IMG/VR virus record: IMGVR_UViG_2690316166_000023
From: a virus
Lineage: Duplodnaviria > Heunggongvirae > Uroviricota > Caudoviricetes
DNA length: 9,395 nt
Reading direction: 5' to 3' (one strand)
Each line of letters starts with the position of its first letter. The stretch's first letter is position 1. The notes beneath the pieces were generated by a model. The model saw only the letters and a list, made by a program, of their open reading frames with translations. It was not told the origin of the DNA and did no database searches. Of this stretch, positions 487-9,395 are shown one piece after another. A program made the position numbers and the translations under genes.

Positions 487-2799
487 NNNNNNNNNNNNNN
501 NNNNNNNNNNNNNNNNNNNNNNNNNNNNNNNNNNNNNNNNNNNNNNNNNNNNNNNNNNNNNNNNNNNNNNNNNNNNNNNNNNNNNNNNNNNNNNNNNNNN
601 NNNNNNNNNNNNNNNNNNNNNNNNNNNNNNNNNNNNNNNNNNNNNNNNNNNNNNNNNNNNNNNNNTCTGAATATCATTATATACTTGCAGCCGTCACCCA
701 TGCTCCANNNNNNNNNNNNNNNNNNNNNNNNNNNNNNNNNNNNNNNNNNNNNNNNNNNNNNNNNNNNNNNNNNNNNNNNNNNNNNNNNNNNNNNNNNNNN
801 NNNNNNNNNNNNNNNNNNNNNNNNNNNNNNNNNNNNNNNNNNNNNNNNNNNNNNNNNNNNNNNNNNNNNNNNNNNNNNNNNNNNNNNNNNNNNNNNNNNN
901 NNNNNNNNNNNNNNNNNNNNNNNNNNNNNNNNNNNNNNNNNNNNNNNNNNNNNNNNNNNNNNNNNNNNNNNNNNNNNNNNNNNNNNNNNNNNNNNNNNNN
1001 NNNNNNNNNNNNNNNNNNNNNNNNNNNNNNNNNNNNNNNNNNNNNNNNNNNNNNNNNNNNNNNNNNNNNNNNNNNNNNNNNNNNNNNNNNNNNNNNNNNN
1101 NNNNNNNNNNNNNNNNNNNNNNNNNNNNNNNNNNNNNNNNNNNNNNNNNNNNNNNNNNNNNNNNNNNNNNNNNNNNNNNNNNNNNNNNNNNNNNNNNNNN
1201 NNNNNNNNNNNNNNNNNNNNNNNNNNNNNNNNNNNNNNNNNNNNNNNNNNNNNNNNNNNNNNNNNNNNNNNNNNNNNNNNNNNNNNNNNNNNNNNNNNNN
1301 NNNNNNNNNNNNNNNNNNNNNNNNNNNNNNNNNNNNNNNNNNNNNNNNNNNNNNNNNNNNNNNNNNNNNNNNNNNNNNNNNNNNNNNNNNNNNNNNNNNN
1401 NNNNNNNNNNNNNNNNNNNNNNNNNNNNNNNNNNNNNNNNNNNNNNNNNNNNNNNNNNNNNNNNNNNNNNNNNNNNNNNNNNNNNNNNNNNNNNNNNNNN
1501 NNNNNNNNNNNNNNNNNNNNNNNNNNNNNNNNNNNNNNNNNNNNNNNNNNNNNNNNNNNNNNNNNNNNNNNNNNNNNNNNNNNNNNNNNNNNNNNNNNNN
1601 NNNNNNNNNNNNNNNNNNNNNNNNNNNNNNNNNNNNNNNNNNNNNNNNNNNNNNNNNNNNNNNNNNNNNNNNNNNNNNNNNNNNNNNNNNNNNNNNNNNN
1701 NNNNNNNNNNNNNNNNNNNNNNNNNNNNNNNNNNNNNNNNNNNNNNNNNNNNNNNNNNNNNNNNNNNNNNNNNNNNNNNNNNNNNNNNNNNNNNNNNNNN
1801 NNNNNNNNNNNNNNNNNNNNNNNNNNNNNNNNNNNNNNATTCAGCAGTTCGGCCTGGANNNNNNNNNNNNNNNNNNNNNNNNNNNNNNNNNNNNNNNNNN
1901 NNNNNNNNNNNNNNNNNNNNNNNNNNNNNNNNNNNNNNNNNNNNNNNNNNNNNNNNNNNNNNNNNNNNNNNNNNNNNNNNNNNNNNNNNNNNNNNNNNNN
2001 NNNNNNNNNNNNNNNNNNNNNNNNNNNNNNNNNNNNNNNNNNNNNNNNNNNNNNNNNNNNNNNNNNNNNNNNNNNNNNNNNNNNNNNNNNNNNNNNNNNN
2101 NNNNNNNNNNNNNNNNNNNNNNNNNNNNNNNNNNNNNNNNNNNNNNNNNNNNNNNNNNNNNNNNNNNNNNNNNNNNNNNNNNNNNNNNNNNNNNNNNNNN
2201 NNNNNNNNNNNNNNNNNNNNNNNNNNNNNNNNNNNNNNNNNNNNNNNNNNNNNNNNNNNNNNNNNNNNNNNNNNNNNNNNNNNNNNNNNNNNNNNNNNNN
2301 NNNNNNNNNNNNNNNNNNNNNNNNNNNNNNNNNNNNNNNNNNNNNNNNNNNNNNNNNCGCTGTCGCTCCGTGAGGGTGGCTCCGGCCATATCACACTCGG
2401 GAAGCCCGAGATAACGCTCCCAGTCTTCCAGCAGCAGGCGCGACGTNNNNNNNNNNNNNNNNNNNNNNNNNNNNNNNNNNNNNNNNNNNNNNNNNNNNNN
2501 NNNNNNNNNNNNNNNNNNNNNNNNNNNNNNNNNNNNNNNNNNNNNNNNNNNNNNNNNNNNNNNNNNNNNNNNNNNNNNNNNNNNNNNNNNNNNNNNNNNN
2601 NNNNNNNNNNNNNNNNNNNNNNNNNNNNNNNNNNNNNNNNNNNNNNNNNNNNNNNNNNNNNNNNNNNNNNNNNNNNNNNNNNNNNNNNNNNNNNNNNNNN
2701 NNNNNNNNNNNNNNNNNNNNNNNNNNNNNNNNNNNNNNNNNNNNNNNNNNNNNNNNNNNNNNNNNNNNNNNNNNNNNNNNNNNNNNNNNNNNNNNNNNN
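487..2799. other. N-masked / undetermined sequence: four N runs (487-665, 708-1838, 1859-2357, 2447-2799) separated by short real islands (666-707, 1839-1858, 2358-2446)
   Basis: Directly visible runs of n. ORF-track entries crossing this block are poly-X and cannot be trusted, since stop codons may be hidden. Context implies tail-fibre coding on the minus strand. Confidence 0.99.
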
Positions 2800-2934
2800 C
2801 CTGCGTCCCGTCAAAGGGAACCCCATTAATATTTCTTGGGGTGGCGAGTCTATTCGCGGCAACGGCGGTGCCGTCCGATGGCAGAGCATTCGCCGCCCTG
2901 TTTACCGTTTCCCGTAAACCGAGGTTTTCAGGAA
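2800..2934 (-). CDS. 5' portion of a tail-fibre variable (C-terminal) segment that begins at the crossover site and has no start codon of its own; continues leftward into masked sequence
   Basis: Minus-strand frame with first codon bases at 2938, 2935, ... reads NRVNPGFPENLGLRETVNRAANALPSDGTAVAANRLATPRNINGVPFDGTQ. The LGL-ETVNRA-N motif is, as I recall it, the conserved junction of P2 H / Mu S / P1 S-type tail fibres. In-frame TAA at 2954-2956 immediately upstream and no ATG/GTG/TTG before the masked block. Confidence 0.5.
2909..2934. other. Site-specific recombination crossover site for the adjacent invertase (gix/pix/hix/cix-type, 12-2-12 imperfect dyad)
   Basis: TTCCCGTAAACC-GA-GGTTTTCAGGAA; the right half is the reverse complement of TTCCTGAAAACC, almost identical to the left half. 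Closely resembles the Mu gix site as I recall it (TTCCTGTAAACCGAGGTTTTGGATAA). Lies 65 bp upstream of the invertase start and inside the tail-fibre motif. Confidence 0.75.
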
Positions 2935-2999
2935 AGCCAGGATTAACTCTGTTTTATTCCTCATGCGACAATTCCGGCTTTTTATAATAAGGAAATCGT

Positions 3000-3572
3000 A
3001 TGCTGATTGGGTATATCAGGGTGTCAACAAATGACCAGAATACGGCGCTACAAAGAAATGCGCTGGAATGTGCAGGATGTGAGCTGTTTTTCGAAGACAG
3101 AATAAGCGGTAAGACAAGGGAGCGTCCCGGACTTAAACGCGCATTAAAGCGACTCCGGCCAGGGGATACCCTGCTGGTCTGGAAACTGGATCGCCTTGGA
3201 CGCAGTATGCAGCACCTTGTCCTTTTAACAGAAGAACTCCGGCAACGCGGCGTTAACTTCCGCAGCATTACGGACAATATTGATACATCCACTCCCATGG
3301 GACGTTTCTTTTTCCATATAATGGGCGCGCTGGCGGAAATGGAGCGGGAACTCATTATTGAACGTACACGCGCGGGTCTTGCTGCTGCCCGTGCTCAGGG
3401 GCGTCATGGCGGCAGACCTCAGAAACTGACAGAGAAAGAGCGGGAGCAAATCGCCCGTTTGCTGGCTAATGGCGAGTCCCGTAAACAAATCGCACTGATA
3501 TTTGATATTGGCCTTTCCACCCTTTATCGTTATTTTCCTGCCTCACCAGCTCCGTCACCAAAAGTACCGTGA
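3000..3572 (+). CDS. Serine recombinase: DNA invertase of the Gin/Pin/Hin/Cin family
   Basis: 190-aa ORF, ATG 3000 with AAGGAAA ribosome-binding site upstream. N-terminus MLIGYIRVSTNDQNT (catalytic Ser in RVST), ...GDTLLVWKLDRLGRS..., ...PMGRFFFHIMGALAEMERELIIERT..., C-terminal HTH (...IALIFDIGLSTLYRYF), all hallmark invertase blocks. Adjacent crossover site. Confidence 0.95.
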   Translation: MLIGYIRVSTNDQNTALQRNALECAGCELFFEDRISGKTRERPGLKRALKRLRPGDTLLVWKLDRLGRSMQHLVLLTEELRQRGVNFRSITDNIDTSTPMGRFFFHIMGALAEMERELIIERTRAGLAAARAQGRHGGRPQKLTEKEREQIARLLANGESRKQIALIFDIGLSTLYRYFPASPAPSPKVP

Positions 3573-3657: not shown

Positions 3658-5712
3658 ATGTCAGACTCCAAGTGGAAAATGCTCTCCGCCATGCCCGGAG
3701 AGTTTTCAGTCAAGGTTGCCGGTGGCACGGTGGCATTTATTGAAAGCCCTTTCCGCCCTTCGGGTAATAAAGGGGGGATCACCTTCGCAGACTGCGTGAT
3801 CCGCTTCAGCACGAAAGAGCCATTATGGGTAATGCCGGTATCCGGTAATCCCAGTGCAGAAATCACCAGTTCAGGCGTGACTGGCATCATTCCAATCACA
3901 TCTGACGTGGCCGGAACGCTCACGCCCTCCGACTGGAATGCACCGGATAACGCCGGGCCTTCCGGTAGCACGAATGGCAGCAGTTCAGAGCCGGAATATT
4001 ACTTTGTTGTCATTCTCGCGGGTCAGTCAAATGGCATGGCCTACGGCGAGGGGCTGCCGTTACCGGATTCGTTTGACCGCCCGGACCCACGCATTAAGCA
4101 ACTGGCACGCCGCAGTACGGTAACGCCCAACGGTACGTCGTGTACATACAACGACATCATTCCGGCAGACCACTGCCTGCATGATGTTCAGGATATGAGC
4201 GGGATAAACCACCCGAAAGCTGATCTGGCAAAAGGCCAGTACGGGACTGTCGGTCAGGGGTTGCATATTGCCAAAAAACTGCTTCCCTATATCCCACAGA
4301 ATGCCGGGATACTTCTGGTGCCCTGTTGTCGTGGCGGGTCAGCATTCACCACTGGAGCCGACGGCTCATTCAGTGAGGCCAGCGGTGCTTCCGCTGATTC
4401 TTCACGCTGGGGGGCCGGTAAACCTCTGTATCAGGACCTGGTAAGCCGCACCAAAGTCGCGCTGGCGAAAAACCCGAAAAACAAACTTCTGGCTGTGGTC
4501 TGGATGCAGGGAGAGGCAGACCTTGCCTCAGGAAGCCAGCAGCATAATAGTTTATTCACGGCCATGGTTCAGCAGTTCAGAACTGACCTGGCTCCGCTTG
4601 CTGCGCAGTGCGTGAGTGGAAATGCCACCACGGTGCCGTGGATTTGCGGTGATACCACGTATTACTGGAAAAACGCTGGCACCGATAAATATGAGGCAGT
4701 ATACGGTGGCTACAAAGGCAAGGAAGCACAGAAAATTTTCTTTGTACCGTTCCTGACGGATGAGAATGGACAGAGCACGCCAACGAATGCTCCGGCGGAA
4801 GACCCGGATATTGTGGCTGTCGGGTATTACGGTGCAGCATCCCGAACCCAGGGCAGTTTTGTTTCGACACAGCGTGACAGCCATTTCAGCTCATGGGCAC
4901 GCAGGGGCGTCATTTCAGACCGTCTGGCCTCAGCTATTATGCTCCATGCAGGGCGCACGGCTGAACTGATGCGCGGGCAGACCGTGACACCACCGGATGA
5001 GAAGCCGTCACCTGATACACCATCAAAACCGTCCACGCCACCCGCAGACACCACGACGATGAGTACGCTATTTGCTTACCGGGCATCTGAGTCTGAAGGA
5101 CGGTTGACACCACAGGGTTGGGCTGCCGGAGGTGGCAAGGCTCAAATCGTGGATGATGCCGGAGCCAGCGGGGGTAAGGCAATGAAACTGACCAAGGAAA
5201 CAGGAAGAGCCCTCTGGTACCTTGAGCATGATGCTGGTAATGGTGCGGACCTGCTGGGTAAAGGTGGTCTTGTCAGTTGTCGTTTTAAACTCGATGGCGC
5301 GCTTACGGCTAATCAGTACGCACTGGCGCTGTACTGGCCGGTTTCTGCCCTGCCGCAAGGGGTTACTCTGGAAGGAAATGCCGGTCATAACCTGCTGGCA
5401 TCGTTCTACGTACAGAGCGATGCCACAGACCTTAACGTGATGTATCACAAAGGAAACACGGCGCAGAACACGAAGCTGGGGTCATTCGGCGCATTTAATA
5501 ACGAATGGCATACGCTGGGCTTCCGTTTTGCCGGTAACAACAGTATTGAGGTGACGCCGGTCATTGATGGTAAGGACGGGACACCATTCATGCTGTCGCA
5601 GTCTCCGGTCGGCACGTTTACGGCAGACAAGTTGCGCGTGACCGATATCACTAAAAATGCGACTTACCCGGTACTGATTGACAGTATCGTGGTGGAAGTG
5701 AATAACGCGTAA
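3658..5712 (+). CDS. SGNH/SASA-family carbohydrate O-acetylesterase, three-part architecture resembling prophage NanS-p sialate O-acetylesterases
   Basis: 684-aa ORF. SGNH blocks visible: block I VILAGQSNGMAYGEG (catalytic Ser), block II CCRGGSAF, block III WMQGEADL, block V RDSHFS (Asp/His). Preceded by a ~110-aa S/T/G-rich N-terminal region and followed by a Pro/Thr-rich linker (TPPDEKPSPDTPSKPSTPPADTTT, about nt 4980-5060) and a ~220-aa C-terminal domain. Weak ribosome-binding site. The enzyme class is well supported; the sialate substrate is inferred. Confidence 0.8.
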   Translation: MSDSKWKMLSAMPGEFSVKVAGGTVAFIESPFRPSGNKGGITFADCVIRFSTKEPLWVMPVSGNPSAEITSSGVTGIIPITSDVAGTLTPSDWNAPDNAGPSGSTNGSSSEPEYYFVVILAGQSNGMAYGEGLPLPDSFDRPDPRIKQLARRSTVTPNGTSCTYNDIIPADHCLHDVQDMSGINHPKADLAKGQYGTVGQGLHIAKKLLPYIPQNAGILLVPCCRGGSAFTTGADGSFSEASGASADSSRWGAGKPLYQDLVSRTKVALAKNPKNKLLAVVWMQGEADLASGSQQHNSLFTAMVQQFRTDLAPLAAQCVSGNATTVPWICGDTTYYWKNAGTDKYEAVYGGYKGKEAQKIFFVPFLTDENGQSTPTNAPAEDPDIVAVGYYGAASRTQGSFVSTQRDSHFSSWARRGVISDRLASAIMLHAGRTAELMRGQTVTPPDEKPSPDTPSKPSTPPADTTTMSTLFAYRASESEGRLTPQGWAAGGGKAQIVDDAGASGGKAMKLTKETGRALWYLEHDAGNGADLLGKGGLVSCRFKLDGALTANQYALALYWPVSALPQGVTLEGNAGHNLLASFYVQSDATDLNVMYHKGNTAQNTKLGSFGAFNNEWHTLGFRFAGNNSIEVTPVIDGKDGTPFMLSQSPVGTFTADKLRVTDITKNATYPVLIDSIVVEVNNA

Positions 5713-5726
5713 GCAGGATAAAAAAA

Positions 5727-5761
5727 TGCCGCCGGTAAGGGAAAACAAGAAACCGGCGGCA
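5727..5761. terminator. GC-rich stem-loop immediately after the esterase stop; a run of T follows it on the minus strand only
   Basis: Stem TGCCGCCGGT (5727-5736) pairs with ACCGGCGGCA (5752-5761), 15-nt loop. Flanked by AAAAAAA (5720-5726) upstream and AAAAAG downstream, so the canonical hairpin-plus-U-tract geometry exists for leftward transcription; rightward it is a hairpin without a U-tract. Confidence 0.4.
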
Positions 5762-5856
5762 AAAAGATCGTTATATCCAAAGCAAAAAATGCAGTGCACC
5801 TTTTTACCTAACAGATATTACCGGTGTCAACACCATGTCAATAATTGGGAGGGATA

Positions 5857-6039
5857 ATGACATTTTTACAGCTTATTTTATTGTATTTCTGCACGGCAGT
5901 ATGTGCGTTATATCTGGTGAGTGGTGGTTATAAGGCCATCAGAAATTATGTTCGCCGCAAAATTGAGGACGCAGCAGCTGAAAAACTCAGTAAAACAGCG
6001 CAGGTAACTCCGCTCCCAAAAGACCCGACCCAGCCCTGA
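5857..6039 (+). CDS. Small hypothetical membrane protein (60 aa): one N-terminal hydrophobic helix and a basic tail
   Basis: ATG 5857 four nt after GGGAGGG (5847-5853); MTFLQLILLYFCTAVCALYLVSGGYKAIRNYVRRKIEDAAAEKL... The ORF-track start at 5845 is a TTG with no ribosome-binding site. No family recognised. Confidence 0.5.
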   Translation: MTFLQLILLYFCTAVCALYLVSGGYKAIRNYVRRKIEDAAAEKLSKTAQVTPLPKDPTQP

Positions 6040-6074
6040 TTGCAGGGCTTTATTCCCGCATAAGGAGGATATAC

Positions 6075-6329
6075 ATGCCAGAAATTAAAGGCACCGTCAC
6101 TGAAGACCTGGTAAAACAGGCACTGTATTCCGGTGAAGTAAATAAGTTGCTGAAAGCGCAGGTCCGCAAGGATTTTGAGGCACAAATCGACACTTACGTT
6201 GATGAAGTGCTGGCAAAACTTATTGGGCCAGCAGTTGCGGCCAGTGATGCTGATAATGAGCCGAAAACCGACGCGCAGCCAGAGCAACCAGACCCGGCTC
6301 AGCCCGGAACTGACAGTACCATGATGTAA
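6075..6329 (+). CDS. Small hypothetical acidic protein (84 aa): helical N-terminus and an Asp/Glu/Pro/Gln-rich, probably disordered, C-terminus
   Basis: ATG 6075 with near-consensus ribosome-binding site AAGGAGG (6062-6068, 6-nt spacer); 35 nt downstream of the previous ORF on the same strand, so probably one operon. No family recognised. Confidence 0.6.
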   Translation: MPEIKGTVTEDLVKQALYSGEVNKLLKAQVRKDFEAQIDTYVDEVLAKLIGPAVAASDADNEPKTDAQPEQPDPAQPGTDSTMM

Positions 6330-6386
6330 CAATACAAACCGGTGGTGTCCTCTGCCGGTTTGACACTAATGAAAACATCTTTGCCG

Positions 6387-6496: not shown

Positions 6497-6790
6497 TTAG
6501 TCCGATTCACGCTTTTGTAGAATCGTTCCCAGAATGCTATACAGCTCATTAGCCTGTTGCTCCATCATTGAGACGGAGGCTATACGGTGCAAAGTGATTT
6601 CAGGAGGTGGCACACCTCCATCTTCTTGCTGTGGAGGAAAAACATAAGATTTAATAAAAAAGTTGAAGCATATGAACTCTCCCGCACTCGAACTGTATTT
6701 GCAGGCATCTGAATAATCGGAAAAATAATCATTATAGATTTCCGCATTTTCAATCATTTTTCGATTTCTCGTCGTTACATGATTGTCCAT
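6497..6790 (-). CDS. Hypothetical protein (97 aa), AT-rich, transcribed divergently from com-mom
   Basis: Minus-strand ATG at 6790-6788 with AAGAGG 5 nt upstream (complement of about 6796-6801). MDNHVTTRNRKMIENAEIYNDYFSDYSDACKYSS...; no family recognised. Composition appears more AT-rich than the flanking genes. Confidence 0.55.
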   Translation of the reverse strand: MDNHVTTRNRKMIENAEIYNDYFSDYSDACKYSSSAGEFICFNFFIKSYVFPPQQEDGGVPPPEITLHRIASVSMMEQQANELYSILGTILQKRESD

Positions 6791-6978: not shown

Positions 6979-7003
6979 AATCGATCGTTTTTGTCGATCG
7001 ATT
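6979..7003. promoter_or_regulatory. Palindromic operator-like element with two Dam (GATC) sites upstream of com-mom
   Basis: AATCGATCG-tttttgt-CGATCGATT: 9-bp arms in perfect inverted repeat, GATC at 6984-6987 and 6996-6999, a third GATC at 6914-6917. About 45-65 bp upstream of the com start. Mu mom is known to be controlled through clustered GATC sites whose methylation blocks OxyR binding. Confidence 0.45.
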
Positions 7004-7046
7004 GAGTGATAAAGATATCAACAACAAAGCAGGAGGTTATGCGGCC

Positions 7047-7247
7047 ATGTATCGAAACATACGGTGCCGACATTGTAACAAGCTACTGGCACGAGCCAGC
7101 TTCAGTTATCTGGAAGTTAAATGTCCGCGCTGTAAAACCCTCAATCAAATCACATCTCAGAGCGCCACAGAGCACCCCACATACACAAGGAAATCCTGTC
7201 GTGGGGAACAGAAAGCAAGTTACATCCCGTATCATCAGCACGCCTGA
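7047..7247 (+). CDS. com: Com-like zinc-finger translational activator
   Basis: 66-aa ORF, ATG 7047 ten nt after AGGAGG (7031-7036). [30 protein letters not shown]... has the Cys-X2-Cys...Cys-X2-Cys pattern and aligns block-wise with Mu Com as I recall it (MKSIRCKNCNKLL...IEIRCPRCK...). Its 3' end overlaps the following mom-like frame. The ORF-track start at 7002 is a TTG extension. Confidence 0.8.
7175..7206 (+). promoter_or_regulatory. RNA hairpin that would sequester the putative mom GTG start codon and its ribosome-binding site (candidate Com-responsive translational switch)
   Basis: CCCCAC (7175-7180) is the exact complement of GTGGGG (7201-7206); the 20-nt loop holds AAGGAAA; the GTG at 7201-7203 is in the mom frame and inside the 3' arm. 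It lies inside the 3' end of com, the arrangement known for Mu. Confidence 0.4.
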
Positions 7248-7938
7248 ACTTATTCACTATAACGACAATATCGTCGGTTATGGCTCCCGTGAGTTACGGG
7301 TTGAGACAATAAGTTGCTGGCTGGCCCGGCTGGTCGTCGTCAATAAACATTACAGCCATCGTTTCGTAAATAATTCCTACCTTCATCTGGGCATATTTTC
7401 AGAACGGGAGCTGGTTGGCGTAATGCAATGGGGTTATGCCCTTAATCCAAACAATGGTGCACGCGTCGTAACTGGCACGCAGAACCGCGAATATATGGAG
7501 CTTAACCGGTTATGGCTGCATGACTGTATGCCGAGAAACTCCGAATCAAGGGCAATCAGTTACGCGCTCAAACTAATCAGACAACTTTATCCGCAGGTGC
7601 AGTGGGTTCAGTCGTTTGCAGATGAGCGTTGTGGCTGTCTTGGTGTCGTGTACCAGGCAAGCAATTTTGATTATGTAGGCAGTCATGAAACAACATTCTA
7701 TGAACTTGATGGCGAGTGGTATCACGAGATTTGCAAGAATGCAATCAAACGAGGAGGACAGCGAGGTGAACATCTGCGGGCTAATATCGACAGAGCCAGT
7801 GTTCATAAATTCCGTCAGTTTCGTTACATCCGGTTTCTGGACAAGAGAGCCAGAAAACGCCTTAACACAAAGCTATTCAAAGTCCAGCCTTACCCAAAAC
7901 CACAAACAGTTAAAACTGGTTTGAAAGAGAGTGAATGA
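7201..7938 (+). CDS. mom: Mom-like DNA modification protein (adenine-modifying, acyltransferase-like); start uncertain: GTG 7201 proposed, maximal ORF begins at 7006
   Basis: Long ORF ending at 7938 that overlaps com in another frame, which is the signature com-mom arrangement. GTG 7201 has AAGGA 8 nt upstream and sits in the hairpin, giving 245 aa (Mu Mom is about 230 aa). Assignment rests on context; I cannot recall Mom sequence well enough to align it. Confidence 0.6.
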
Positions 7939-7995
7939 ACGCTTAAAAACTCATTCTAAAACTCAAAAGAAAAGCGCCGATTTAGTATCAAATAA

Positions 7996-8862
<867 letters not shown>

Positions 8863-8975: not shown

Positions 8976-9395
8976 TCAAAGAAACCATTCCGGCTTAACG
9001 CCAAATCGGGCTGAAAGTGCCTTAATGTGGGATATCGTCAGGGATCGTTGTCCAGACAAAATCTGACTGACCAGGGATTTAGAGCCGATTTCGTTCTTCA
9101 AATCCGCATAGGTCAGATTATGTTGATCAATCAGCGTGCGAAGTAACGCCACGCCAACAGGCATTGCCGCAACGGCTTTGTCGAACTCTGCAAACTCTTG
9201 GTTGTTGTTTTCATATTCTGCAATGCGGCTCGCCAGAAAGTCGATAAGTGGATTGGTGTCATCTTCTTCAATCAAATATTCGACCAGTTCCAGTGCTTCA
9301 CGATAATCATCTTCTGAGTCACTACCTCCCAGAAAGGGGACTGCATTGACCAGTTCTCTTGTTGCTTTAACAGCGCGTGCAGCATTAGCAGTCAT
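8976..9395 (-). CDS. HigA-family antitoxin / XRE-type HTH regulator
   Basis: 139-aa minus-strand ORF whose ATG is the last three bases of the window. MTANAARAVKATRELVNAVPFLGG...NPLIDFLASRIAEYE...EFAEFDKAVAAMPVGVALLRTLIDQHNLTYADL...IGSKSLVSQILSGQRSLTISHIKALSARFGVKPEWF matches E. coli HigA block for block as I recall it. The partner toxin gene would lie upstream, outside the window. Confidence 0.8.
   Translation of the reverse strand: MTANAARAVKATRELVNAVPFLGGSDSEDDYREALELVEYLIEEDDTNPLIDFLASRIAEYENNNQEFAEFDKAVAAMPVGVALLRTLIDQHNLTYADLKNEIGSKSLVSQILSGQRSLTISHIKALSARFGVKPEWFL

What the first reader, a model, noticed from the sequence alone, without database searches (positions are those of the whole stretch)
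5857..6329. Two-gene operon of unknown function: small membrane protein plus small acidic protein
Both genes have strong ribosome-binding sites (GGGAGGG and AAGGAGG), are 35 nt apart and are followed by a hairpin terminator. The first encodes a 60-aa single-helix membrane protein with a basic tail; the second an 84-aa protein with a strongly acidic, Pro/Gln-rich tail. I recognise neither. The size and pairing are reminiscent of small membrane toxin plus neutraliser modules, superinfection-exclusion pairs or holin-like effectors, but this is conjecture.
Basis: inference. Interest (0 to 1): 0.5.

Follow-up and report, generated by a model that had tools for sequence, protein, structure and literature searches.

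The report
Known phage DUF1378/DUF826 small-gene pair
The two small genes are real and already catalogued as phage families of unknown function (DUF1378 and DUF826); they ride with a sialic-acid esterase gene in a Mu-like prophage, and relatives of the membrane protein sit at the end of phage lysis cassettes, which suggests an untested role in host-cell lysis.

Summary
Both ORFs are real: 5857-6039 (60 aa) and 6075-6329 (84 aa), each with a strong RBS, 35 nt apart, under purifying selection (dN/dS 0.30 and 0.16). They are not orphans. The first is Pfam DUF1378 (E 9e-32) and the second is Pfam DUF826 (E 6e-16). Identical proteins are annotated in RefSeq and occur on at least 1000 contigs.

They form the last two genes of a three-gene cassette: NanS-p-like sialate O-acetylesterase, DUF1378, DUF826. 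Here the cassette lies between gin and com-mom at the right end of a Mu-like prophage. The same cassette lies between stx and the pinholin gene S in Shiga-toxin phages.

No member of either family has a known function. New here: in 26 of 34 loci, longer DUF1378 relatives start on the stop codon of the spanin gene, mostly in class II holin/SAR-endolysin lysis cassettes. The predicted N-out/C-in topology matches Mu releasin and LambdaSo Lcc6, with no sequence homology to releasin.

Best guess (about 0.4): a membrane-tethered lysis accessory factor with DUF826 as cytoplasmic partner. A lysogenic-conversion or exclusion moron, or an esterase accessory, remain open. A toxin-neutraliser pair has no support.

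The parts
3658..5712 (+). NanS-p-like sialate O-acetylesterase (684 aa), first gene of the cassette. SASA esterase domain at residues 117-312 and DUF6645 lectin-like domain at 533-650. The N-terminal ~110 aa match no family.
   Evidence: Pfam SASA E 1.5e-13 and DUF6645 E 7e-68. phrog_143 E 2e-296. About 69% nt identity to 933W nanS-p over 3990-5702. N-terminal 121 aa have no Pfam hit.
5727..5761 (+). GC-rich hairpin (10-bp stem) just after the esterase stop. It is preceded by an A-run and not followed by a U-run on the + strand.
   Evidence: Fold -21.7 kcal/mol, z -4.0. An equivalent A-run plus hairpin occurs after nanS-p in 933W and in L003 despite different sequence.
5847..5853 (+). Ribosome-binding site GGGAGGG for the DUF1378 gene.
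   Evidence: Read directly from the sequence.
5857..6039 (+). DUF1378 family gene (60 aa). Predicted N-out/C-in single-pass inner-membrane protein: TM at residues 3-24 with the conserved motif LYFCxxVCxLYLxSGGY, then a basic cytoplasmic helix and a Pro-rich end.
   Evidence: Pfam PF07125 E 9.4e-32, 109 bits. phrog_494 E 1.3e-32. Alignments A2 and A4. Hydropathy and charge. dN/dS 0.30.
6032..6049 (+). Small 7-bp hairpin spanning the DUF1378 stop codon.
   Evidence: Fold -17.3 kcal/mol for 6015-6080, z -2.2. A hairpin at the same position occurs in 933W and more weakly in L003.
6062..6068 (+). Ribosome-binding site AAGGAGG for the DUF826 gene.
   Evidence: Read directly from the sequence.
6075..6329 (+). 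DUF826 family gene (84 aa). Soluble helical core (helix 10-17, long helix 20-50) plus a disordered acidic Pro/Gln-rich tail ending in a conserved hydrophobic Met motif.
   Evidence: Pfam PF05696 E 6.4e-16. phrog_311 E 4.9e-28. AlphaFold2 model with pLDDT above 90 for residues 21-50 and below 55 from 51 onward. dN/dS 0.16 overall, 0.13 for the core and 0.55 for the tail.
6335..6362 (+). Hairpin after the DUF826 stop (11-bp stem) without a proper U-tract.
   Evidence: Fold -16.7 kcal/mol, z -2.5. Not called by the terminator scan. Positional equivalents occur in L003 and 933W, the latter with a U-run.

Best explanation
Shown: the two ORFs are genuine genes under purifying selection. They belong to Pfam DUF1378 (a small inner-membrane protein) and Pfam DUF826 (a small acidic helical protein). 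They are the distal genes of a conserved cassette: NanS-p-like sialate O-acetylesterase, DUF1378, DUF826. In this window the cassette sits in the accessory slot between gin and com-mom at the right end of a Mu-like transposable prophage. In Shiga-toxin and other lambdoid phages the same cassette sits between stx and the pinholin gene S.

Inferred mechanism: DUF1378 inserts with its N-terminus out and about 36 basic residues in the cytoplasm. It acts at the inner membrane as an accessory factor of phage lysis. That would mean modulating the step at which pinholin depolarisation, SAR-endolysin release and spanin action are triggered. In this it would resemble the non-homologous Mu releasin gp25 and LambdaSo Lcc6. 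DUF826, with a long amphipathic helix and an acidic tail, would be a cytoplasmic partner or modulator that binds the basic juxtamembrane helix of DUF1378.

Family membership, cassette structure, predicted topology and genomic association with lysis genes are shown. Any effect on lysis, and any physical contact between the two proteins, are inferred only.
For: Family membership.

Real genes: dN/dS 0.30 and 0.16.

Cassette conserved in two unrelated phage backbones, although nanS-p is only about 69% identical at the nucleotide level and the small proteins are about 52% and 36-44% identical.

Lysis association of the DUF1378 family:
- In 26 of 34 loci found with the long-form profile, the start codon overlaps the stop of the spanin gene by 4 nt. 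In 3 more it follows within 11 nt.
- The upstream gene is an Rz-like spanin (phrog_214, E 3e-47) with an embedded o-spanin (phrog_456).
- Among 78 distinct contexts, 25 are spanin followed by DUF1378, 8 have a lysis cassette nearby, and 14 are nanS-p, DUF1378, DUF826, S, R.
- Most of those cassettes have class II or pinholin-like holins and endolysins of 172-179 aa with Gly/Ala-rich N-terminal SAR-like segments.
- 933W R and the endolysin of this Mu-like prophage type also carry such segments.

Topology: no charge before the TM; five K/R within 12 residues after it.

Precedents:
- Mu gp25 is a 99-aa N-out/C-in membrane-tethered cytoplasmic protein needed for SAR-endolysin release (PMC9239132).
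- LambdaSo Lcc6 is 65 aa, with TM 5-22 and 43 cytoplasmic residues. It is essential for lysis in a pinholin/SAR-endolysin phage and is encoded far from the lysis cassette (bioRxiv 10.1101/2024.01.23.576932).

Pair linkage independent of the esterase: DUF826 and DUF1378 are adjacent, in reversed order and without NanS-p, in L111, L114 and L115.
Against: - In this window, and in all Mu-like copies, the pair is far from the lysis genes. It lies in a classic moron slot after the tail-fibre/gin region.
- That prophage type already has its own DUF2730 releasin homologue.
- 11 of 78 contexts are tail-fibre assembly, DUF1378, Dam methylase, with no lysis gene nearby.
- The slot after Rz is also a common moron slot.
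- DUF1378 occurs with several holin, endolysin (including soluble GH19) and spanin types, so no specific lysis partner is evident.
- There is no sequence relation to releasin (hhalign probability 0.15%) or to any annotated lysis PHROG above noise.
- DUF826 also occurs alone, next to glycosyltransferase-type morons.
- A structure prediction of a natural fusion gave no confident contact (pLDDT 51).
- No experiment on any member was found.
Confidence: 0.4

Rival explanations
1. Lysogenic-conversion moron acting on the host envelope. DUF1378 would be a small inner-membrane protein that binds a conserved host membrane protein through its highly conserved TM segment. Examples would be blocking DNA entry of superinfecting phages or modulating a transporter. 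DUF826 would assist or regulate it.
For: - The pair sits in typical moron slots: after gin and the tail fibres in Mu-like phages, after tail-fibre assembly and before Dam in other myophages, and after Rz or before the terminase gene in lambdoid phages.
- The cassette is bracketed by hairpins.
- It has moved between unrelated phage backbones.
- The TM segment, not the tail, is the best-conserved part, regardless of which holin, endolysin or spanin the phage has. That fits a host target.
- Neighbouring genes are accessory: NanS-p esterase, Mom or methylases.
Against: - No hit to any defence or exclusion model in PADLOC, and no annotated PHROG.
- No promoter-like site upstream of the pair.
- The 4-nt overlap with the spanin stop codon in 26 of 34 long-form loci implies late, lysis-coupled expression rather than lysogen expression.
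- In Stx phages the pair lies inside the Q-dependent late operon (PMC10462455).
Confidence: 0.25
2. Accessory proteins of carbohydrate-active morons. The pair, or at least DUF826, would help the NanS-p esterase, for example in membrane localisation, release or regulation.
For: - In every E. coli, Shigella or Citrobacter-type locus examined, the pair directly follows a NanS-p-like gene, in both phage backbones and across about 30% nucleotide divergence.
- Short solo DUF826 genes in L116-L122 also sit at the 3' end of a glycan-related block: MptE-like (which PHROG names a sialyltransferase), GT2 glycosyltransferase and methyltransferase.
Against: - DUF1378 occurs without any esterase in at least 44 of 78 contexts.
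- DUF826 plus DUF1378 occur together without NanS-p in L111, L114 and L115.
- The literature on NanS-p read here reports activity of the esterase and names the small ORFs only as unknown (PMC10462455).
- No domain in either protein suggests sugar binding or transport.
Confidence: 0.12
3. Small membrane toxin plus proteic neutraliser. DUF1378 would damage the membrane and DUF826 would neutralise it, giving addiction or abortive infection.
For: Size, charge complementarity (+3.5 against -8.5) and adjacency of the two genes.
Against: - DUF1378 is encoded alone in dozens of phages with no DUF826, which would be lethal for a toxin.
- DUF826 also occurs alone.
- Gene order is not fixed.
- No PADLOC or toxin-antitoxin family hit: the best is PbeC at E 0.0076 and 12.9 bits, which is noise.
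Confidence: 0.05

Closest known systems
Pfam DUF1378 (PF07125) / PHROG 494 and Pfam DUF826 (PF05696) / PHROG 311: the uncharacterised ORFs between nanS-p and holin S of Shiga-toxin phages such as 933W
   Same: Direct membership, with scores far above the curated cut-offs. Same gene order after a NanS-p-type esterase. Same size, TM motif, helical core, acidic tail and hydrophobic Met C-terminus.
   Different: The backbone is a Mu-like transposable prophage, not a lambdoid one. What follows is com-mom rather than S-R-Rz. The esterase has a different N-terminal domain (no DUF1737). Identity to the 933W proteins is only about 52% and 36%.
Phage Mu gp25 'releasin' (DUF2730)
   Same: A small protein with an N-terminal TM, predicted N-out/C-in, and a helical cytoplasmic domain. 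It is encoded in phages that use SAR endolysins. Relatives of DUF1378 lie within the lysis cassette.
   Different: No sequence relationship (hhalign probability 0.15%; no Pfam DUF2730 hit). DUF1378 is shorter (60 against 99 aa). The window's copy is not near the endolysin, and the same prophage type has its own DUF2730 gene. Function untested.
Shewanella phage LambdaSo Lcc6
   Same: About 65 aa with an N-terminal TM and about 43 cytoplasmic residues. The phage uses a pinholin and a SAR endolysin. The gene is encoded away from the lysis cassette near a genome end, as the pair is here.
   Different: None of the 34 family clusters found by the exhaustive search is 65 aa long. Lcc6 has a shown lysis phenotype; DUF1378 has none on record.
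Soluble cytoplasmic lysis regulators such as T4 RIII or P1 LydB (recalled from memory, not tested)
   Same: A small cytoplasmic helical protein that could act on the cytoplasmic face of a membrane lysis protein. This is the role proposed for DUF826.
   Different: No homology found. DUF826 matches only PHROGs of unknown function, and nothing in PDB sequences or BFVD folds.
Small inner-membrane superinfection-exclusion morons such as HK97 gp15 (recalled from memory, not tested)
   Same: A small single-TM protein encoded at the end of the tail or late region in a moron slot.
   Different: No match to any PHROG annotated as exclusion, or to PADLOC. Many relatives are translationally coupled to spanin genes.

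Membership tests
Pfam DUF1378 (PF07125) | Whole-protein score above the curated gathering cut-off (25 bits) over the full ~59-residue profile | tested here: met
   109.4 bits, E 9.4e-32, residues 1-58 on profile positions 1-58 of 59. phrog_494 E 1.3e-32.
Pfam DUF1378 (PF07125) | N-terminal hydrophobic helix with the conserved LYFCxxVCxLYLxSGGY(K/R)xxR motif | tested here: met
   Invariant columns M1 F3 L9 Y10 F11 V15 L18 Y19 L20 S22 G23 G24 Y25 R29. Hydropathy maximum 2.1 over residues 4-22.
Pfam DUF826 (PF05696) | Whole-protein score above the curated gathering cut-off (25 bits) | tested here: met
   58.7 bits, E 6.4e-16, residues 1-57. phrog_311 E 4.9e-28 over residues 1-83.
nanS-p / DUF1378 / DUF826 cassette of Stx and lambdoid phages | Gene order: SASA+DUF6645 esterase, then DUF1378, then DUF826, all on the same strand | tested here: met
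   Window 3658-5712, 5857-6039 and 6075-6329. The same order occurs in 933W (L002) and in 34 distinct contexts.
nanS-p / DUF1378 / DUF826 cassette of Stx and lambdoid phages | Location between stx (or Q) and the holin S of the late operon | tested here: not met
   Here the cassette lies between gin (3000-3572) and com-mom (7002-7938) of a Mu-like prophage.
Releasin (Mu gp25, DUF2730) | Sequence membership of DUF2730 (PF10805) | tested here: not met
   No Pfam hit other than DUF1378. hhalign of the DUF1378 profile against the DUF2730 protein of the same prophage type gave probability 0.15%.
Releasin (Mu gp25, DUF2730) | N-terminal TMD with N-out/C-in topology and a cytoplasmic C-terminal domain | tested here: inconclusive
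   Prediction only. No charged residue lies before the TM, and K26, R29, R33, R34 and K35 lie after it. No experimental topology exists.
Releasin (Mu gp25, DUF2730) | [quoted passage not shown] | tested here: not met
   In the complete prophage L001 the endolysin is at 1380-1880 and the pair at 20158-20630. The feature is met by long-form relatives: 29 of 34 directly follow the spanin gene.
Releasin (Mu gp25, DUF2730) | Required for release of a SAR endolysin | not testable with these tools
   Needs genetics or a lysis assay.
LambdaSo Lcc6-like lysis factor | About 65 aa, N-terminal TM, about 43 cytoplasmic residues, in a pinholin/SAR-endolysin phage | tested here: inconclusive
   The architecture matches by prediction: 60 aa, TM 3-24, 36 cytoplasmic residues. 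The host prophage type has a SAR-like endolysin.
Holins (any class) | Match to a holin family | tested here: not met
   No holin family in Pfam or PHROGs. Lethality could not be tested.
Two-component spanin (Rz/Rz1) | i-spanin: N-in TM plus periplasmic coiled coil, paired with a lipoprotein o-spanin | tested here: not met
   Only long-form relatives give noise-level hits to Rz-like PHROGs (E about 0.005). The charge distribution predicts the opposite topology. DUF826 has no lipobox.
Toxin-antitoxin or anti-phage defence pair | Match to a known toxin, antitoxin or defence model, and obligate co-occurrence of the two genes | tested here: not met
   The PADLOC best hit is 12.9 bits, E 0.0076. Each family occurs without the other.

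The most novel reading that the evidence does not exclude
DUF1378 would define a third, non-homologous class of membrane-tethered cytoplasmic lysis factors, after Mu releasin and LambdaSo Lcc6. It would be the last gene of many class II holin / SAR-endolysin / spanin cassettes. In Shiga-toxin phages it would work with DUF826 immediately upstream of S. The pair would then influence the timing of lysis, and so of Shiga-toxin and NanS-p release.
Probability: 0.3. Interest if true: 0.65.

Novelty: already known. Interest (0 to 1): 0.35.

Why it matters
The pair is carried by hundreds of Shiga-toxin and other E. coli prophages. It was found in 309 phage records, and DNA similar to this 751-nt region was found in 350 of 5426 complete E. 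coli genomes. It sits next to stx, nanS-p and the lysis genes, yet no function is known for either family.

If DUF1378 proves to be a lysis accessory factor, standard holin/endolysin/spanin descriptions of pinholin/SAR-endolysin phages would be incomplete. Toxin-release timing in EHEC would gain a new determinant. If it proves to be an ordinary moron, the finding is a routine annotation of two DUF genes. Either outcome can be reached with simple deletions and plasmid lysis assays.

Tried and rejected
1. PDB sequence searches with both profiles gave nothing below E 0.1.

2. The AlphaFold2 model of DUF826 is one short and one long helix plus a disordered tail. A Foldseek search of BFVD gave no match below E 1.9. 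Further fold searches were not run because a single helix is uninformative.

3. AlphaFold2 of P0214, a natural frameshift fusion of the DUF1378 tail and DUF826, was tried as a stand-in for a complex. Mean pLDDT was 51, so it is uninformative. An alignment meant to support such a model was mis-aligned by MAFFT and was dropped.

4. hhalign of DUF826 against the C-terminal helix of long-form DUF1378 tested a gene-fission idea. Probability was 12% over 44 columns, probably a compositional effect, so this is inconclusive.

5. hhalign against DUF2730 releasin was negative.

6. Literature searches by DUF names, Pfam accessions and locus tags found only one relevant mention and no functional study.

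7. Alignment A1 contained a chimeric database protein (P0064). This produced spurious 'DUF826' hits near com. It was rebuilt as A5.

8. tblastn of the window's DUF826 against phage records found only 2 records. Profile searches show DUF826 beside DUF1378 in all lambdoid loci.

9. The antisense ORF 5946-6332 (128 aa, - strand) and the TTG start at 5845 were considered and rejected. Reasons: the Pfam match, the RBS position, homologues that start with MTF, and the dN/dS in the + frames.

11. One source names the protein 'regulator of sigma D'. Nothing supports this name.

Full report
OBSERVATION

The first runs from ATG 5857 to TGA 6039 (60 aa). The second runs from ATG 6075 to TAA 6329 (84 aa). 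GGGAGGG (5847-5853) and AAGGAGG (6062-6068) lie at proper distances from the two start codons, and the gap between the genes is 35 nt.

Protein 1 has one hydrophobic helix (residues 3-24) and a basic remainder (pI 9.9, +3.8). Protein 2 is acidic (pI 4.2, -8.5) with a Pro/Gln/Asp/Glu-rich tail.

A hairpin with an 11-bp stem follows at 6335-6362 (-16.7 kcal/mol, z -2.5). It lacks a U-tract and the terminator scan did not call it.

Both ORFs are under purifying selection against a cassette that is 78% identical. dN/dS is 0.30 for the first and 0.16 for the second. The DUF826 core scores 0.13 and its tail 0.55. Only the word 'terminator' is unproven.

WHAT THE GENES ARE

The genes are not orphans.
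- Protein 1 is a full-length member of Pfam DUF1378 (109 bits, E 9e-32) and PHROG 494.
- Protein 2 is a member of Pfam DUF826 (59 bits, E 6e-16) and PHROG 311.
- Identical DNA occurs in 14 complete E. coli genomes, and similar DNA in 350 of 5426.
- RefSeq annotates the proteins as WP_000143468.1 and WP_001114100.1.
- Each exact sequence occurs on at least 1000 contigs.
- The only relevant paper found notes that some Stx2a phages have DUF826/DUF1378 ORFs of unknown function between nanS-p and the holin gene S (PMC10462455).

Both families are small. An exhaustive HMMER search of 1.84 billion representatives found only 34 DUF1378 clusters. DUF826 gave 226 clusters; every listed hit that carries a source name is from Escherichia or Shigella, and Citrobacter rodentium appears among the members of the window protein's cluster.

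CONTEXT IN THE WINDOW

- Upstream lies a Gin-type serine invertase (3000-3572).
- Next is a 684-aa protein with a SASA esterase domain and a DUF6645 domain (3658-5712). This is a NanS-p-type sialate O-acetylesterase.
- Downstream are an unassigned 97-aa ORF on the other strand, then com and mom (7002-7938).
- After those come a truncated glycoside hydrolase family 1 gene and a HigA-like gene.

A complete copy in strain JKHS016 shows that this is the right end of a Mu-like prophage. It has Mor, a SAR-type endolysin, DUF2730, a Mu-type head and tail, gin and com/mom. Other copies sit in other host genes, for example citF. The prophage end maps to position 8043 by comparison with an annotated Mu-like insertion.

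THE CASSETTE

The trio of esterase, DUF1378 and DUF826 occurs in two unrelated backbones.
- In 933W and other lambdoid phages the order is stxAB, nanS-p, DUF1378, DUF826, S, R, Rz.
- In E. coli Mu-like phages the order is gin, esterase, DUF1378, DUF826, a variable slot, then com and mom or a C5 methylase.

The two versions are old. They share about 69% nucleotide identity over the esterase. The small proteins are about 52% and 36-44% identical. All three genes are nevertheless kept intact.

No promoter-like site precedes the pair. A GC hairpin preceded by an A-run follows the esterase stop in all three cassette types. A small hairpin spans the DUF1378 stop codon. A hairpin follows DUF826, with a U-run in 933W.

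WIDER FAMILY CONTEXTS: THE NEW INFORMATION

The exhaustive search also found longer DUF1378 members (80-91 aa) that pass the Pfam cut-off. They have an LIAGGW-type TM and a long Ala/Glu/Lys helix.

A scan of IMG/VR with their profile gave 34 loci.
- In 26 loci the start codon overlaps the stop codon of the preceding gene by 4 nt.
- In 3 more it follows within 11 nt.
- The preceding gene is an Rz-like i-spanin (phrog_214, E 3e-47) with an embedded o-spanin (phrog_456), or a separate o-spanin.
- Upstream are class II or pinholin-like holins.
- The endolysins are mostly 172-179 aa with Gly/Ala-rich N-terminal SAR-like segments. A few cassettes have soluble GH19 endolysins.
- The one cultured-phage record with a long form, phage EKP1, shows the same layout: holin, lysozyme, Rz, a small ORF, then DUF1378.

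De-duplication gives 78 distinct DUF1378 contexts:

| Context | Count |
|---|---|
| Spanin followed by DUF1378 | 25 |
| Lysis cassette nearby, other order | 8 |
| Lambdoid trio followed by S-R | 14 |
| Mu-like trio | 20 |
| Tail-fibre assembly, DUF1378, Dam methylase | 11 |

Three of the last group (L111, L114, L115) have a short DUF826 immediately before DUF1378. That is the pair in reversed order and without an esterase.

Short DUF826 genes also occur alone. They follow a block of MptE-like, GT2 and methyltransferase genes and precede the small terminase gene.

So the two families are linked in several arrangements, but neither strictly needs the other or the esterase.

STRUCTURE AND TOPOLOGY

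DUF1378 has no charged residue before its TM, and has K26, R29, R33, R34 and K35 after it. The positive-inside rule therefore predicts N-out/C-in, with about 36 cytoplasmic residues. The TM is the best-conserved part.

DUF826 is predicted as a short helix (10-17) and a long helix (20-50, pLDDT above 90) with a disordered tail.

There are no relatives in PDB sequences or in BFVD folds, and no PADLOC match above noise.

MECHANISM

Two precedents share the predicted architecture of DUF1378.
- Mu gp25 'releasin' is a 99-aa N-out/C-in, membrane-tethered cytoplasmic protein needed for SAR-endolysin release (PMC9239132).
- LambdaSo Lcc6 is 65 aa, with TM 5-22 and 43 cytoplasmic residues. It is essential for lysis with a pinholin and a SAR endolysin, and it is encoded far from the lysis cassette.

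DUF1378 is not homologous to DUF2730.

Three points favour a lysis role. Long-form genes are translationally coupled to spanin genes. The Stx-phage pair lies directly before S. Every E. coli backbone examined here that carries the pair has an endolysin with a SAR-like N-terminus. I therefore consider a lysis-accessory role at the inner membrane the best-supported mechanism, with DUF826 as a cytoplasmic partner of the basic juxtamembrane helix. I rate it at only about 0.4.

The window's own copy lies in a moron slot far from the lysis genes, as do 31 of 78 contexts. No specific lysis partner co-varies with the family.

Rivals:
- A lysogenic-conversion or exclusion moron acting on a host membrane protein (about 0.25).
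- An accessory of carbohydrate-active morons such as NanS-p (about 0.12).
- A toxin-neutraliser pair (about 0.05). This is contradicted by the many solo DUF1378 genes.

VERDICT

The feature is real and correctly described, but it is already catalogued: two DUF families annotated in RefSeq and mentioned in the Stx-phage literature. It is part of a three-gene cassette rather than a free-standing two-gene operon.

Its function is still unknown. The spanin-coupled relatives give a concrete, testable lead. Interest is moderate to low (0.35). The most novel reading not excluded is a new class of lysis factor relevant to Shiga-toxin release. I give that a probability of about 0.3 and an interest of about 0.65 if true.

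Noticed in passing
window 7966-8862: The Mu-like prophage ends at about 8043 (...ATCGCCGCGCTATA), matching the annotated end of a Mu-like insertion in LC727881. From 8044 the sequence is the C-terminal two thirds of a glycoside hydrolase family 1 (6-phospho-beta-glucosidase-like) gene. The prophage therefore disrupted this host gene. Other copies sit in citF or elsewhere, as expected for transposition.
   Followed up: partly
window 2358-3572: A Gin/Pin-type serine invertase lies at 3000-3572. Short stretches at 2358-2443 and 2800-2929 match related prophages in inverted orientation, consistent with an invertible tail-fibre (G-like) segment. Most of that segment is masked by N in the window.
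   Followed up: no
window 487-2799: Four runs of N (487-665, 708-1838, 1859-2357, 2447-2799) mask most of the left third of the window.
   Followed up: yes
window 3658-4020: The N-terminal ~110 residues of the NanS-p-like esterase match no Pfam family. They replace the DUF1737 domain of Stx-phage NanS-p. Homology to 933W nanS-p begins only at about 3990. This looks like a domain swap tied to the change of phage backbone.
   Followed up: partly
window 6497-6790 (- strand); L003 8503-8697 (- strand): The slot between DUF826 and com is variable. Here it holds a 97-aa ORF with no Pfam, PHROG, NCBIfam or PADLOC hit, shared by a subset of the Mu-like prophages. In L003 it holds a 64-aa zinc-ribbon-like ORF instead.
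   Followed up: partly
window 7002-7938; L003 9237-10289: com (Zn-ribbon Com, E 1e-12) overlaps the start of mom (Pfam Mom, E 2e-77). In the related Mu-like element in L003, mom appears to be replaced by a 350-aa ORF read by eye as a C5 cytosine methyltransferase. No family search was run on that ORF.
   Followed up: no
window 5727-5761; L002 5135-5165; L003 7860-7888: All three divergent cassette types have an A-run followed by a strong GC hairpin right after the esterase stop, with no U-run on the coding strand. Read on the opposite strand it looks like an intrinsic terminator (hairpin plus U7). Position and structure are conserved but the sequence is not.
   Followed up: partly
window 6032-6049; L002 about 5429-5445: A small hairpin spans the stop codon of the DUF1378 gene in the window and in 933W, and more weakly in L003. 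It might set the ratio of expression of the two genes.
   Followed up: partly
L116-L122 (e.g. L122 3311-6159): Short DUF826 genes (55-56 aa, no acidic tail) occur without DUF1378. They lie at the end of a block of MptE-like (PHROG name: alpha-2,3-sialyltransferase), GT2 glycosyltransferase and methyltransferase genes, just before the small terminase gene. This is a second association of DUF826 with glycan-related accessory genes.
   Followed up: partly
proteins P0064, P0172, P0180, P0214: Public databases hold chimeric or frameshift products that join DUF1378 and DUF826, or join DUF826 to sequence upstream of com. P0064 contaminated my first alignment and produced false DUF826 hits near com.
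   Followed up: yes
window 8976-9395 (- strand): A HigA-like HTH antitoxin-type gene (Pfam HTH_3, E 2e-9) runs to the window edge. A partner toxin, if any, would lie beyond the window.
   Followed up: no
window 5946-6332 (- strand): A 128-aa antisense ORF overlaps the whole DUF826 gene, and a similar one exists in L003. It is most likely a by-product of the composition of the sense strand, because selection and family matches are in the + frame.
   Followed up: partly
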